From NCBI GenBank assembly GCA_934168205.1, contig CAKPMX010000001.1, forward strand, positions 510,603 through 574,602: a stretch of 64,000 nt of DNA, given 5' to 3'. A program made the position numbers and the translations under genes. The notes below the pieces were generated by a model that was not told the DNA's origin, made no database searches, and saw nothing but the letters and a program-made list of their open reading frames with translations. Positions 53,171-64,000 of the stretch are shown piece by piece (position 1 is the first letter of the stretch; the number at the start of each line of letters is the position of its first letter). This stretch comes from an uncultured Bacilli bacterium (GTDB lineage Bacteria > Bacillota_I > Bacilli_A > RF39 > UBA660).

Positions 53171-53172
53171 AA

Positions 53173-53200
53173 AAAGAGACTACTAAAGTCTCTTTTGTTT
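53173..53200 (+). terminator. intrinsic terminator
   Basis: AGAGACT-actaa-AGTCTCT followed by TTTT. Confidence 0.55.
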
Positions 53201-53715
53201 CTTAATATTTATACAAACAAAAAACATGATCCTGACAAACCATGTTTTTCGAGTTTACAATGGAAAACCACAACAGCTTCAAGCAAAAGTTTTACAGTTC
53301 CCTATATAATCAAAGACTATACAAGAAACGCCGATAAAACAACTCGAACCCAAGATTCTTAATAAGTGTCAGTATTAAGAAGTGGCATCCTATCAACTAG
53401 CAAGTACTCTCTTGCTACACGTGTAATCTTAGACCGTGATAAGATAATGGAAACTAAGTAACCATTTTTCCCTCATAAGCACCAAATAAATGGAAACTTA
53501 CAACAAGACCCAGCGATTATACATAAATGACGAATCAAATAAATATAACAGCCTGTCAACTATAATCATATCTAAGATAATATTATACTATCATAAGAGA
53601 AAGTAAAATGCAATACTTTTTTACAGAAAATGTCGAAAATTTTCAAAAAGTTCAAGTTAGTGTAAAATTTGTCACCAGTAAGGGCAAAAAACATAAAATA
53701 TTACAGGTGATAAAT

Positions 53716-61283: not shown

Positions 61284-63930
61284 TGTAAATAGTATGAAGT
61301 ATTCTATTGATTATATATCTGGTATAATGTCGTTAAGAAACCCACAAGAAAAGTCATTGCAAATATTGGATGATATATTAAAAAGTACGAATTTAATGAA
61401 TGAATATAACCAAGATAATATTAATAATTTAAAGGTAATTAATTCAAAATATCCAATATTTACTGAATTTGAAAGAGCATTTACTTCATTAACATTTGCA
61501 TTAGCAACAGGTGTTGGTAAAACTAGACTTATGGGAGCATTCATAACATATCTTTATACAAACTATAATATTAAAAATTTTTTAGTAATTGCTCCATCTA
61601 CAACTATATATGAAAAATTAAAAAGAGACCTAGGAAATCCAGATAATTCTAAATATGTGTTTAAAGGAATTGGATGTTTTAATAATCCTCCAAGAGTAGT
61701 CGCTGATGATGATTTTAATAGAATGATAAATTTATTTGATTCTGAAGTAACAATTTATGTTTATAATATAAGTAAATTTGATAAAGAAAATACAAAAATG
61801 AAAGCTTTCAGTGAAGTAAGAGGAATGTCTTTTTATGATGAATTAGCGGAAATGAAAGATTTAGTCATTATTATGGATGAATCACATCATTATAGAGCAG
61901 ATAGAGGAATGGAAACTATAAACAATCTGAAACCAATTTTAGGCTTAGAATTGACTGCCACACCTTTAGTAAATGTAAAAGGTAAGCAAATTCCATTTAA
62001 AAATGTTGTGTACGAATATCCATTATCTGAAGCAATAAAAGACGGATATACAAGAGTTCCTTTTGCAGTTACTAGAACGGATATTAATTTTTATAATTTT
62101 GGTGATGATGAGATAGATAAATTGATGTTAAATGATGGAATTTTATGTCATAAACGCATTAAGGAAAAATTATTTTATCATTCTAGAAGTATGAAAAAGG
62201 ATTTAATAAAACCATTTATGTTAGTTGTATGTAAAGACACTGAACATGCTTCAAAAATAGAAAAGTATATAAAATCTGATGACTTTCAGAATGGATATTA
62301 TAAATTTAAAACAATAACAATAAATTCAAAAATGTCAGGCGTTGAAACTGAAGTTAATACAAAGCTGCTTTTAAATGTTGAAAAAGTTGATAATCCAATT
62401 GAAATAGTAATTCATGTTAATATGTTAAAAGAAGGATGGGATGTAAATAATCTTTATACAATTGTGCCTTTAAGGACAGCAAGTTCAAAAATATTAAGGG
62501 AACAAATGGTAGGAAGAGGACTACGATTACCTTATGGTGAAAGAACTGGTGATAAGGATATTGACTCTGTTATGCTTACAGCACATGATAAATTTAAGGA
62601 AATTATAGAAGAAGCCCAAAAAGGTGATTCAATTTTTAACAAAGGTAATATTATAAAAGCTGAAGAACTAGAAAAGGAAAAAATAATTTTTACGCGCTTA
62701 CCTCTGGAATACCCCTCAGATGATGAATTGTGTGATAAACTTGTTGTATGTGAGGAAAGCGAAAAATATGGTTTTGCAAATAGAATAAATGATTTATTAG
62801 TAAAGAATGTTGAAAATTACACTTTAAGTTCTAATAATAATTTTACGGATGAAGGAAAAATTAAAATAAAAGATGCTATAGAATATGAAATAAAAAAAGA
62901 TAAGGATTATGGTAAAATTTATGATGAAAATAAAAATCCAATTGAAAATTGGATAAAAGAAAATATTATTAAGACACACGATCAAATTCTTAACAAATTT
63001 ATTTTAATACCAAAGATTAAGGTAGAAAGAGAAGAAGGTGAATACTACTTTGATGATTTTGATTTGGATTTAACTGAATTTAATCAGCAACCTATAGAAA
63101 ATGAATTAATTTTAAGAAATTTATTAGATTCCTCAGATGAAGAAAAAATACAAAAAGGTTATATTACTTTTGATATATTGAATCCTAAAAAGTCGATTGT
63201 CGATGAGTTACGAAAAAAAGCAGAAGTTGATTATGAAAAAAGTTCAGAGCTATTATTTAAATTAATAAGTCAGTTGACAGATTATTATGAACAACAATAT
63301 GGTGTAGACGGAACAAAAAACATAGTTATGATGTATAAAAATGAAATAACATCAGAAATTTATTCTCAAATGTTAAGACATTTTATTAGAAATGAAGGAT
63401 TGATAAAGGAAGAAGTTTTTAGTAATAGTAATATAAATTTTCAATCAAATTACAGTTATAGTAAAGTAAAGAATATTTTTGATTCATATGATTCTAAAAA
63501 TGATGGAAAAATAACTTCAATATTATTTGATGGAATAAAGAGAGGTGTATTTAGTTCAGCAAAATTTGATAGTGAACCAGAACTTATACTTGCCAGACAG
63601 CTTGAAAGAGAAGATAATTTTGTGCGTACATGGTTAAGACCTAGTCCAAATGAGTTTAATATTACATATAATGGTGGAAAGCGTTATGAACCAGACTTTG
63701 TAGTGGAAACAGAATCTATTGTATATTTAGTTGAAGTAAAAGCTGATAATAAATTAGATGATGTTGATGTTTTAGCAAAACAGGAAAGAGCACTTTCATA
63801 TTGTCAATTAGTATCAAAATGGGCAGATTCAACAGGTAATAAACATTGGGAATATGTTTTGATACCTTCAAGTAAGATACAAACTAATTCAACTTTTAAA
63901 TATTTAACTGAACAATACAAAGTTGATTAG
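61276..63930 (+). CDS. res: Type III restriction-modification Res subunit (SF2 helicase plus C-terminal PD-(D/E)xK endonuclease)
   Basis: ATG 61276 overlaps the mod stop by 8 nt (ATGAATGA); Walker A LATGVGKTRLMG, DEAH box IIMDESHHY, C-terminal nuclease YEPDFVVETESIVYLVEVKAD. Confidence 0.8.
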   Translation: MNDVNSMKYSIDYISGIMSLRNPQEKSLQILDDILKSTNLMNEYNQDNINNLKVINSKYPIFTEFERAFTSLTFALATGVGKTRLMGAFITYLYTNYNIKNFLVIAPSTTIYEKLKRDLGNPDNSKYVFKGIGCFNNPPRVVADDDFNRMINLFDSEVTIYVYNISKFDKENTKMKAFSEVRGMSFYDELAEMKDLVIIMDESHHYRADRGMETINNLKPILGLELTATPLVNVKGKQIPFKNVVYEYPLSEAIKDGYTRVPFAVTRTDINFYNFGDDEIDKLMLNDGILCHKRIKEKLFYHSRSMKKDLIKPFMLVVCKDTEHASKIEKYIKSDDFQNGYYKFKTITINSKMSGVETEVNTKLLLNVEKVDNPIEIVIHVNMLKEGWDVNNLYTIVPLRTASSKILREQMVGRGLRLPYGERTGDKDIDSVMLTAHDKFKEIIEEAQKGDSIFNKGNIIKAEELEKEKIIFTRLPLEYPSDDELCDKLVVCEESEKYGFANRINDLLVKNVENYTLSSNNNFTDEGKIKIKDAIEYEIKKDKDYGKIYDENKNPIENWIKENIIKTHDQILNKFILIPKIKVEREEGEYYFDDFDLDLTEFNQQPIENELILRNLLDSSDEEKIQKGYITFDILNPKKSIVDELRKKAEVDYEKSSELLFKLISQLTDYYEQQYGVDGTKNIVMMYKNEITSEIYSQMLRHFIRNEGLIKEEVFSNSNINFQSNYSYSKVKNIFDSYDSKNDGKITSILFDGIKRGVFSSAKFDSEPELILARQLEREDNFVRTWLRPSPNEFNITYNGGKRYEPDFVVETESIVYLVEVKADNKLDDVDVLAKQERALSYCQLVSKWADSTGNKHWEYVLIPSSKIQTNSTFKYLTEQYKVD

Positions 63931-64000
63931 ATTTTTATAAAAAATGGTATAGATTTTATATTCGAGATATCCTTTGTAAAAAAGGCTAGAAAAAGTAAAT

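What the first reader, a model, noticed from the sequence alone, without database searches (positions are those of the whole stretch)
53171..64000. Ten-kb AT-rich defence island appended after the prs-like/cofE-like operon
From 53.2 kb to the window end every gene is defence- or mobility-flavoured: an amidase fragment, a phosphoesterase, a helicase, a wHTH protein, an orphan and a Type III R-M system. GC content is visibly lower than in the ribosomal and glycolytic core. The right boundary is outside the window.
Basis: partly seen in the sequence, partly recalled or inferred. Interest (0 to 1): 0.5.

Follow-up and report, generated by a model that had tools for sequence, protein, structure and literature searches.

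The report
Mobile defence island splitting amidase gene
The AT-rich stretch at the end of the window is the left 10 kb of a roughly 18-kb mobile element, most likely inserted by a large serine recombinase into a cell-wall amidase gene, and it carries phage-defence genes. This is a familiar kind of island, but in this group of gut bacteria the amidase gene was split at this codon in every close relative sampled.

Summary
From about 53,988 to 64,000 the window is 24.9% GC against 30.3% elsewhere. It encodes a metallophosphoesterase, a full-length PADLOC PDC-S53 helicase, a small HTH_36 protein, a 344-aa protein and an intact Type III Mod/Res pair.

The island is not simply appended after cofE. 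The "amidase fragment" is the 5' half of a host Amidase_3-LysM gene, cut after ...ISNHINAGG.

A metagenome contig (L080) carries the same element at 92-97% nt identity in a host whose amidase half is only 49% identical. In L080 the element continues past Res through an Avs4-like NTPase and a 542-aa large serine recombinase to the amidase 3' half. An empty-site allele joins both flanks precisely.

Relatives carry other cargo at the same codon: AbiP2 reverse transcriptase, Type II and IV restriction, QatC. The window and L080 differ by one swapped slot and a swapped Mod recognition domain.

All 120 closest clusters of the 5' half (66-100% identity) are truncated, yet its dN/dS is 0.04-0.14.

Verdict: a new member of a known kind, a recombinase-borne defence island. 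A more interesting reading remains open: regulated excision that restores the amidase gene. The window's own right end is inferred, not seen.

The parts
53172..53196 (.). Terminator-like bidirectional hairpin directly after cofE. It marks the end of the conserved prs/cofE unit and is host DNA.
   Evidence: Synteny up to cofE is conserved in 12 relatives.
53716..53987 (+). 5' half of the host Amidase_3-LysM gene (MYNRATKK...ISNHINAGG). The mechanical ORF is 53608-54000, and relatives align from about residue 34-37. This is the target gene, not cargo.
   Evidence: Pfam Amidase_3 positions 1-79 of 174. The gene is truncated at the same residue in 7-9 related genomes. dN/dS is 0.04-0.14.
53966..54020 (+). 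attL. The host half-site is CTAATCACATAAATGCGGGGGG, ending at 53987. The element half-site is TCAGGACGCGTAATATGTGGTTAATTCTAGG, starting at 53988. The crossover lies within about 53982-53988.
   Evidence: Alignment of the window attL with L080 attL and attR and with the empty-site attB of L170. Host-side similarity to L080 is limited to the last 28 nt, whereas the element side is 94% identical.
53988..64000 (+). Left 10.0 kb of the integrative defence element. Its predicted total length is about 18.0 kb, ending about 7.96 kb beyond the window.
   Evidence: 92-97% nt identity to L080 over 53960-55021, 57869-59968 and 60660-64000. The L080 element spans 1168-20716. GC is 0.2495.
54095..55021 (+). 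Metallophosphoesterase with a C-terminal Cys4 zinc-ribbon-like tail. It is a backbone gene of the element, 96% identical in L080.
   Evidence: Pfam Metallophos 2e-10. PHROG 1649, 2e-32. No PADLOC hit. Identity to L080. Homologues lie in the L007 element (62%) and in L024.
55022..57868 (+). Exchangeable cargo slot. In the window it holds the 905-aa SF1/RecD-like helicase (55143-57860), which matches PADLOC candidate PDC-S53. In L080 the same slot holds decayed IS110 transposase pieces, a TPR-cold-shock-domain protein and RnlA/RnlB.
   Evidence: PADLOC PDC-S53 E=0. Pfam AAA_30, Viral_helicase1 and UvrD_C_2. Slot limits from blastn. L080 slot content. Full-length homologues at 36-41% identity on plasmids of several phyla.
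57870..57892 (+). Terminator-like hairpin at the point where the backbone shared with L080 resumes.
57923..58219 (+). 98-aa stand-alone HTH_36 winged-helix protein of the type found at the N-terminus of phage and plasmid replication initiators. It is a backbone gene, 97% identical in L080.
   Evidence: Pfam HTH_36. PHROG replication-initiator families, N-terminal region only. A 252-aa homologue sits directly after the junction in L008, and another homologue is in L019.
58392..59426 (+). 344-aa protein of a conserved uncharacterised family, not an orphan. It is a backbone gene, 95% identical in L080.
59556..61283 (+). Type III Mod methyltransferase, with DPPY near residue 70 and FLGSGTT near residue 375. 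The central target-recognition region, roughly 59968-60660, is replaced in L080.
   Evidence: PADLOC MTase_III 2e-150, profile 5-561 of 575. Pfam N6_N4_Mtase. 58.6% overall identity to L080 Mod, with conserved ends.
61243..63930 (+). Type III Res subunit: an SF2 helicase core (ATGVGKT, DESHH) plus a C-terminal PD-(D/E)xK-like motif (EPDFVV...VEVK). The mechanical ORF overlaps mod by 41 nt.
   Evidence: PADLOC REase_III 2e-125. Pfam ResIII. 99% identical in L080. Motifs read from the translation.

Best explanation
Window 53,988-64,000 is the left part of an integrative genomic island of about 18 kb. A large serine recombinase (LSR) most likely inserted it by site-specific recombination into the coding sequence of a host N-acetylmuramoyl-L-alanine amidase (Amidase_3 + LysM) gene, between the codons for ...SNHINAGG and GEGAE....

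The element has a conserved backbone: metallophosphoesterase, HTH_36 protein, 344-aa protein, Type III mod-res. By analogy with contig L080 it continues beyond the window with an Avs4-like STAND NTPase, a 198-aa protein and the LSR. It also has at least two exchangeable modules. One is a cargo slot that holds the PDC-S53 helicase here and RnlAB in L080. The other is the Mod target-recognition domain.

Its likely benefit to the host is anti-phage and anti-plasmid defence. Type III restriction is the one system that is complete and well understood. The PDC-S53 helicase is a computational candidate only.

Related LSR elements with different defence cargo occupy the same amidase codon in related gut Bacilli, so the amidase gene acts as a clade-wide docking site for defence islands.

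Shown: gene content, the junction, the hybrid att sites, the empty-site allele, the same element in a divergent host, and the variable cargo. Inferred: that the window's own genome has the L080-like right end with an LSR, that the defence genes are active, and that the LSR is what moves the element.
For: 1. Junction. The amidase 5' half ends at the same residue in the window and in L002, L005-L008, L019, L023, L024 and L080. Downstream sequence then falls into several unrelated groups.
2. Same element, different host. L080 is 92-97% nt identical to the window over three blocks. Its host-side amidase half is only 49% aa identical, with nt similarity limited to the last 28 nt.
3. Right end in L080. 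A 542-aa protein with Resolvase, Recombinase and Zn_ribbon_recom domains is followed by GGGEGAEVIYALRN..., Amidase_3 profile positions 127-173 and four LysM repeats.
4. Empty site. Natural intact proteins read ...ISNHINAGGGEGAEVIY... at 94-99% identity. Contig L170 matches both L080 flanks at 95-97% nt and lacks the 19.5-kb element.
5. Reconstructed attP. It is an imperfect dyad (CTAATCACATAA ... TTATGTGGTTAA). The same outer motif occurs in attB, 4 bp closer to the centre. This resembles the shifted zinc-ribbon-domain motif (ZD motif) described for serine integrases (PMC3783163).
6. Other LSR genes. LSRs at 45-59% identity sit next to the amidase 3' half or at the far end of the variable segment in L010, L011, L023, L024 and L173.
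7. Defence cargo at the same site elsewhere. AbiP2 reverse transcriptase, Type II R-M, Type IV restriction enzyme, AbiLi/AriA-like ATPase, PDC-S07, QatC, AbiO/Nhi-like protein and Avs4-like NTPase.
8. Composition.
Against: - The window stops at 64,000, so its own LSR, attR and amidase 3' half are not seen. The exact Res protein is not on record in the contig index.
- No circular (attP) form was found; one exact-pattern scan of the viral contigs found nothing.
- No recombination directionality factor was identified.
- GC3 is not significantly different from the core.
- Only the Type III R-M is a well-understood defence system. PDC-S53 is a computational candidate and is not mentioned in any searchable paper. 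The metallophosphoesterase, HTH_36 protein and 344-aa protein have no demonstrated defence role.
- The crossover dinucleotide could not be fixed more precisely than the shared GGAGG.
Confidence: 0.85

Rival explanations
1. The element is a gene-intervening element under regulated gene integrity. It is kept permanently in the amidase gene of this genus, and the LSR excises it in some cells or conditions, restoring a functional amidase-LysM hydrolase, as in skin/sigK, SPbeta/spsM and gin/gerE. This extends the main explanation rather than excluding it.
For: - All 120 closest protein clusters to the window's 5' half (66-100% identity) are 89-159 aa, so all are truncated.
- In the 50%-identity representative library, intact junctions appear only at 69% identity or lower.
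- The 5' half evolves at dN/dS 0.04-0.14 with dS up to about 1 among species in which it is split.
- The 3' half is an intact in-frame ORF in L173 (same genus), L080, L010 and L011.
- Precise excision would give an ORF identical to natural intact alleles.
- An intact LSR is kept next to or near attR in every complete example.
- Precedents: PMC5595907, PMC4191935 and PMC7192596.
Against: - There is no evidence of excision products.
- No recombination directionality factor was identified.
- The host group is not known to me to sporulate or differentiate (own knowledge). The single SpoIID-domain gene in the window is not proof of sporulation.
- Several different elements occupy the site, even within one species. 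This implies turnover through an intact intermediate, which could itself explain the purifying selection.
- In the L080 host lineage the empty allele is common.
Confidence: 0.3
2. The window's copy is an immobilised remnant. The site is a passive defence hotspot whose contents are exchanged by homologous recombination between the conserved flanks (the amidase halves), not by the recombinase.
For: - Cargo modules differ inside an otherwise 92-97% identical backbone: the PDC-S53 slot against the RnlAB slot, and the Mod recognition domain. That pattern is typical of homologous exchange.
- LSRs cannot integrate into an occupied attL or attR (PMC3783163), so replacing an occupant needs another route or prior excision.
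- A second variable slot lies directly upstream, between cofE and the amidase, with no recombinase seen in it.
Against: - The same element sits in a host whose flank is only 49% identical, with no nucleotide homology beyond 28 nt. Flank-guided homologous recombination cannot explain this.
- The hybrid att sites and the precise empty site fit site-specific recombination.
- Intact LSR ORFs are present in all complete examples.
Confidence: 0.12
3. The region is a decayed prophage or phage satellite.
For: - The HTH_36 protein resembles the N-terminus of phage replication initiators.
- The metallophosphoesterase and the helicase match PHROG families.
- Many temperate phages use LSRs.
Against: - No capsid, tail, terminase, portal or lysis gene is present in the window part or in the full 19.5-kb L080 copy.
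- The amidase belongs to the host gene, as the empty-site allele shows.
Confidence: 0.03

Closest known systems
Gene-intervening elements excised by large serine recombinases (skin in sigK, SPbeta in spsM, gin in gerE, yin in yabG)
   Same: An LSR-bearing element is inserted inside the coding sequence of a host cell-envelope or development gene. Precise excision would restore the ORF. The gin element is likewise not a prophage (PMC5595907, PMC4191935, PMC10747680).
   Different: The target here is an Amidase_3-LysM gene in gut Bacilli with small genomes. No sporulation-linked control or directionality factor is known for it. The cargo is dominated by defence systems. Excision has not been shown.
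LSR-mobilised genomic islands and mobilisable transposons (the Tn4451/Tn4453 TnpX family; SCCmec with Ccr recombinases), recalled from my own knowledge
   Same: These are non-phage elements of tens of kb that are integrated and excised by a large serine recombinase and carry accessory cargo. Another occupant of this same site in the window's species starts with a TnpV gene (Pfam PF14198); from my own knowledge, TnpV is a Tn4451-family gene.
   Different: No mob, tnpY or tnpZ genes and no resistance genes were seen. Unlike SCCmec at the end of rlmH, the target site is inside a gene and splits it.
Defence islands carried on integrative mobile elements at chromosomal hotspots (for example pipolins, PMC11551731)
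   Same: Several defence systems cluster together. Cargo differs between close relatives at a fixed site, and modules are exchanged between elements.
   Different: The docking site is an LSR attB within an amidase codon. The backbone genes (metallophosphoesterase, HTH_36 protein, 344-aa family) differ from those of pipolins, PICIs and ICEs.
Type III restriction-modification systems (EcoP15I/EcoP1I type)
   Same: The gene order is mod-res. Mod is a beta-class N6-adenine methyltransferase with a central recognition domain. Res is an SF2 helicase plus a PD-(D/E)xK nuclease. Allelic replacement of the recognition domain also occurs.
   Different: No simple-sequence repeat for phase variation is present in mod. 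The recognition sequence is unknown.
PADLOC candidate PDC-S53 (single-gene SF1 helicase)
   Same: The HMM match covers the full length.
   Different: I could find no experimental evidence of defence activity. The roughly 500-aa N-terminal region has no recognised domain.

Membership tests
Type III restriction-modification system | Mod: N6-adenine methyltransferase with motif IV (DPPY) upstream of a central recognition domain and motif I (FxGxG) | tested here: met
   Pfam N6_N4_Mtase 2e-45 in two stretches. PADLOC MTase_III 2e-150 over the full length. DPPYNTG and FLGSGTT are read in the translation.
Type III restriction-modification system | Res: SF2 helicase/ATPase core plus a C-terminal endonuclease motif, encoded directly downstream of mod | tested here: met
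   Pfam ResIII 5e-22 and PADLOC REase_III 2e-125. ATGVGKT, DESHH and EPDFVV...VEVK are in the translation. The res ORF overlaps the end of mod.
Type III restriction-modification system | Hemimethylation of an asymmetric site, with cleavage that needs two inversely oriented sites | not testable with these tools
   This needs methylome sequencing and cleavage assays.
Large-serine-recombinase integrative element | Encodes an LSR (Resolvase catalytic domain, Recombinase domain and zinc-ribbon domain) next to one end | tested here: inconclusive
   Met in the 92-97% identical copy L080 (542 aa, all three Pfam domains) and in L173, L023, L024 and L010. The corresponding part of this genome lies beyond the window's end.
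Large-serine-recombinase integrative element | Flanked by hybrid attL and attR sites, and removing the element gives a contiguous attB found in element-free relatives | tested here: met
   The window attL matches the L080 attL. L080 attL plus attR reconstitute the attB of empty-site contig L170 at 95-97% flank identity. Intact proteins P0241 and P0243-P0250 span the junction.
Large-serine-recombinase integrative element | attP with dyad-symmetric half-sites; outer (ZD) motif closer to the centre in attB; short identical core at the crossover | tested here: met
   attP is CTAATCACATAAAATCTTTCCGGAGG|CGAGGACGCGTATTATGTGGTTAA. The outer motif is 4 bp closer in attB, and the shared core is GGAGG. 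The comparison model is in PMC3783163. The exact dinucleotide is not resolved.
Large-serine-recombinase integrative element | Recombinase-catalysed integration and excision, with a directionality factor for excision | not testable with these tools
   No directionality factor was recognised. The 198-aa protein upstream of the LSR in L080 has no family hit.
Defence island | Several known defence systems clustered together, with content that varies between close relatives at the same locus | tested here: met
   Window: Type III R-M and PDC-S53. L080 adds an Avs4-like NTPase, RnlAB and TPR-CSD. Relatives carry AbiP2 DRT, Type II and IV restriction, QatC, AbiLi/AriA-like ATPase and PDC-S07.
PADLOC PDC-S53 | Full-length match to the family HMM | tested here: met
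   E=0, 1039 bits, residues 7-903 against profile positions 3-894 of 900.
PADLOC PDC-S53 | Protection against phage | not testable with these tools
   No paper in the library mentions PDC-S53.
Regulated-gene-integrity intervening element | Insertion inside the coding region that inactivates the gene, with both halves kept as ORFs | tested here: met
   The 5' half lacks Amidase_3 profile positions 80-174. 3' half ORFs are intact in L080, L173, L010 and L011. The 5' half has dN/dS 0.04-0.14.
Regulated-gene-integrity intervening element | Regulated excision that restores gene function in a defined cell type or condition | not testable with these tools
   This needs read-level junction detection or experiments.
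Prophage | Virion structural, packaging and lysis genes | tested here: not met
   None were found in the window part or in the complete L080 element.

The most novel reading that the evidence does not exclude
In this genus of gut Bacilli the cell-wall amidase-LysM gene is a permanently split gene. Its intervening sequence is an exchangeable, recombinase-borne defence island, and the recombinase excises the island in a subset of cells or under some signal. One event would then restore the peptidoglycan hydrolase and remove (or mobilise) the cell's defence cargo. That would be regulated gene integrity outside sporulation or heterocyst development, coupling cell-wall remodelling or autolysis to the immune repertoire.
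Probability: 0.3. Interest if true: 0.65.

Novelty: new member of a known kind. Interest (0 to 1): 0.42.

Why it matters
- **Mobile defence in an uncultured group.** It shows how a poorly studied, uncultured group of gut Bacilli (relatives labelled Mycoplasma sp. CAG:877, Bacilli and Tenericutes MAGs) acquires and shuffles phage defence. A family of serine-recombinase elements all dock at one conserved amidase codon and swap defence modules.
- **A usable recombinase system.** It provides a natural LSR with attB and attP sites reconstructed from hybrid sites and an empty allele. Such sites are of practical use as genome-integration tools.
- **Genes worth testing.** It flags a widespread 344-aa family and the PDC-S53 helicase as recurrent island genes with no known function. 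The 344-aa family has a confident predicted structure but no detectable fold relative.
- **A possible new case of regulated gene integrity.** If the always-split but selectively conserved amidase is restored by excision, this would be a new case in non-sporulating commensals.

Tried and rejected
- **Exact look-up of Res.** The window's Res protein is not on record in the contig index. The right end was reached instead through a metagenome scan.
- **tRNA target.** There is no tRNA anywhere in the window.
- **Rfam.** No family reaches gathering score in the 64 kb.
- **GC as proof.** This was rejected as sufficient. GC3 is not different, and the conserved SpoIID and Zn_dep_PLPC genes at 46-48 kb are equally AT-rich.
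- **AbiD/Abi_2 gene at 48265-49227.** It is not part of an island. It is syntenic and 80-99% conserved in all relatives.
- **Circular form.** An exact attP pattern scan of the viral contigs found nothing.
- **Promoters.** Promoter-like sites are not above chance in this AT-rich DNA.
- **Phase variation.** No phase-variation repeats were found in mod.
- **Prophage hypothesis.** Rejected for lack of structural genes.
- **First dN/dS script.** It printed nothing and was redone.
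Full report
**1. Checking the observation**

- an Amidase_3 N-terminal fragment (ORF 53608-54000; profile positions 1-79 of 174)
- a calcineurin-like metallophosphoesterase (54095-55021)
- a 905-aa SF1 helicase (55143-57860)
- a 98-aa HTH_36 protein (57923-58219)
- a 344-aa protein with no family hit (58392-59426)
- a Type III Mod (59556-61283) and Res (61243-63930)

PADLOC matches the helicase over its full length to candidate PDC-S53 (E=0). It matches Mod and Res to MTase_III (2e-150) and REase_III (2e-125).

GC is 0.2495 for 53988-64000 against 0.3029 for the rest. No other 10-kb window falls below 0.279, and the 4-mer distance peaks in this region. However, GC3 does not differ significantly (p=0.1). 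Two core genes at 46-48 kb are just as AT-rich. Composition therefore supports foreign origin but does not prove it. The window contains no tRNA and no integrase.

**2. Comparative genomics**

The cofE-like protein retrieved 79 loci. The closest are gut MAGs labelled Bacilli, Tenericutes or "Mycoplasma sp. CAG:877".

In 12 relatives the order EssC, small ORF, SpoIID-domain gene, Zn_dep_PLPC, Abi_2, HtrA, prs, cofE is conserved at 70-99% aa identity (Pfam names). This includes the PADLOC "AbiD" gene at 48265-49227, which is therefore core.

Downstream of cofE the loci diverge. The amidase fragment recurs in L002, L005-L008, L019, L023 and L024. In every case it is truncated at the same residue...ISNHINAGG. 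The sequence after that point falls into several unrelated groups. The left edge of the variable DNA is therefore a fixed point inside the amidase gene, at window position 53982-53988, not the end of cofE.

**3. The right end, seen in a near-identical copy**

A metagenome scan with Res found contig L080. It matches the window at:
- 94% nt over 53960-55021
- 92% over 57869-59968
- 97% over 60660-64000

Protein identities are 96% (metallophosphoesterase), 97% (HTH_36), 95% (344-aa protein) and 99% (Res).

Downstream of Res, L080 encodes, in order:
- a 1583-aa SMEK_N/STAND NTPase (PADLOC Avs4-like)
- a 198-aa protein with no family hit
- a 542-aa large serine recombinase with Resolvase, Recombinase and Zn_ribbon_recom domains
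- an ORF reading GGGEGAEVIYALRN..., with Amidase_3 profile positions 127-173 and four LysM repeats

The amidase 5' half on the left of L080 is only 49% identical to the window's. Nucleotide similarity on the host side is limited to the last 28 nt. The same element therefore sits in the same codon of a divergent host's amidase gene.

**4. Empty site and att sites**

Joining the two L080 halves predicts ...VVVISNHINAGGGEGAEVIYALRNSDK.... Natural proteins with exactly this sequence exist at 94-99% identity (P0241, P0243-P0250).

Contig L170 matches both L080 flanks at 95-97% nt and lacks the element. This places the L080 element at 1168-20716, a length of 19,549 bp.

The att sites are:
- attB: ATATCTAATCACATAAATGCAGGAGG|TGGCGAGGGGGCAGAAG
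- attP (reconstructed): GCCTAATCACATAAAATCTTTCCGGAGG|CGAGGACGCGTATTATGTGGTTAATT

attP is an imperfect dyad. The outer motif CTAATCACATAAA lies 4 bp closer to the centre in attB than in attP. This is close to the 5-bp shift of the zinc-ribbon-domain motif described for serine integrases (PMC3783163).

The window's attL is CTAATCACATAAATGCGGGGGG|TCAGGACGCGTAATATGTGGTTAATTCTAGG. By alignment with L080, the window's element would end about 7.96 kb past the window, giving a total of about 18.0 kb. The LSR would lie 6.2-7.8 kb beyond position 64,000. This step is an inference.

**5. Modularity**

Between the metallophosphoesterase and the HTH_36 gene, the window carries the PDC-S53 helicase (slot 55022-57868). 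L080 carries decayed IS110 transposase pieces, a TPR-cold-shock-domain protein and RnlA/RnlB in the same slot.

The central part of Mod (about 59968-60660) is also replaced, while both ends of Mod and all of Res are conserved. This implies a different recognition specificity.

A terminator-like hairpin at 57870-57892 marks the point where the shared backbone resumes.

**6. The site is a clade-wide docking point for defence cargo**

Other occupants of the same codon include:
- an AbiP2-type defence reverse transcriptase, a metallophosphoesterase homologue and Type II methyltransferases (L007)
- an AbiLi/AriA-like ATPase, PDC-S07 and a Type IV restriction enzyme (L006)
- QatC and a Type II restriction enzyme (L008)
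- a GHKL ATPase, a Dcm methyltransferase and Mrr (L005, L023, L173)
- an AbiO/Nhi-like protein (L002)

LSRs at 45-59% identity to L080's lie at the far end in L023, L024, L173, L010 and L011. L173 belongs to the window's genus and shows the complete arrangement: 5' half, cargo, LSR, Mrr, then the 3' half reading GGGEGAEIVYALRN....

In contigs of the window's own species, a different occupant that starts with a TnpV gene follows the junction.

**7. The 344-aa "orphan"**

It belongs to a family of at least 229 proteins of about 345 aa with no Pfam domain. Homologues sit in integrase-bounded defence islands of Roseburia, Gemmiger and other Firmicutes, next to Hachiman, Fic, DUF6076, LlaJI-type restriction and ThsA-macro genes.

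**8. An always-split but conserved gene**

The 120 protein clusters closest to the window's 5' half (66-100% identity) are all 89-159 aa long. In the library of 50%-identity representatives, proteins that read through the junction appear only at 69% identity or lower.

Among six species in which the gene is split, the 5' half shows dN/dS of 0.04-0.14 at dS up to about 1. The 3' half is an intact ORF wherever it was seen. This does not fit a long-dead pseudogene.

Two explanations remain:
- The gene is restored by excision (regulated gene integrity, as in skin/sigK, SPbeta/spsM and gin/gerE; PMC4191935, PMC5595907, PMC7192596).
- Occupants turn over often through an intact intermediate.

I could not discriminate between them. 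No excision junction was found, and no directionality factor was recognised.

**9. Verdict**

The stretch is the left part of a large-serine-recombinase integrative defence island inserted within an amidase-LysM gene. It is a new member of a known kind.

The main residual uncertainty is that the window's own right end is unseen.

The more novel reading is a defence island acting as a regulated intervening element of a cell-wall hydrolase gene. It is not excluded, and it is directly testable with read-level junction searches.

Noticed in passing
window 48265-49227: PADLOC calls this gene AbiD (2e-59) and Pfam calls it Abi_2. It is syntenic and 80-99% conserved in all 12 relatives, between Zn_dep_PLPC and HtrA. 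It is therefore a core gene here, not part of a mobile island.
   Followed up: partly
window 53171-53607, and the equivalent interval in L002, L004, L006-L008, L013, L003, L052 and L024: The interval between cofE and the amidase 5' half is a second variable slot. It is empty in the window (437 bp). In L006-L008 it holds two small genes (about 186 aa and a Cys-rich protein of about 205 aa). In L002 and L004 it holds a 1053-aa GajB-like UvrD helicase, and in L024 a metallophosphoesterase. In L052, L003 and L013 it holds a type II-A CRISPR-Cas9 locus (Cas9, Cas1, Cas2, Csn2) with an array of about 20 repeats of the 36-nt unit GTTTTAGTTCTATGTCATCTTAAATGGTATTAAAAC.
   Followed up: partly
L171 5001-9700 and L172: In the L080 host lineage, a different LSR element (HNH protein plus a 520-aa LSR) has hit the same amidase-LysM gene. 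This one inserted within the LysM repeats, leaving a 321-aa amidase and a 62-aa LysM remnant. The gene therefore carries at least two distinct LSR target sites.
   Followed up: no
L165-L169 (same species as the window), directly after the amidase junction: Contigs with a 99% identical 5' half continue into a TnpV gene (PF14198; a Tn4451-family gene from my own knowledge). Most of these contigs break within about 1 kb, which suggests a different and possibly multi-copy occupant in other strains of the species.
   Followed up: partly
window 46031-48124 (minus strand): The SpoIID-domain gene and the zinc-dependent phospholipase C-like gene have GC of 0.22-0.24, as low as the island. They are nevertheless conserved in all relatives. 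This is a caution against using GC alone in this genome.
   Followed up: yes
window 1-64000: No Rfam family reaches gathering score anywhere in the window, although it appears to contain a long run of ribosomal-protein-sized genes (17-31 kb). No tRNA is present either.
   Followed up: no
window 40688-45262: A 1524-aa FHA + FtsK/SpoIIIE protein (EssC-like type VII secretion ATPase) lies upstream and is conserved in relatives.
   Followed up: no
L080 18114-18710 and L008 20268-20951: A 198-aa protein just upstream of the LSR has no family hit. Its C-terminal half is 60% identical to the C-terminus of a 227-aa protein in L008. The N-terminus of that L008 protein resembles the first 130 residues of the window's PDC-S53 helicase (31% identity). 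This may be a shared DNA-binding or regulatory module, or a candidate directionality factor.
   Followed up: no
window 61243-61283: The mechanical Res ORF overlaps the end of mod by 41 nt. In-frame ATGs at 61276 and 61294 are alternative starts. The arrangement is identical in L080.
   Followed up: no
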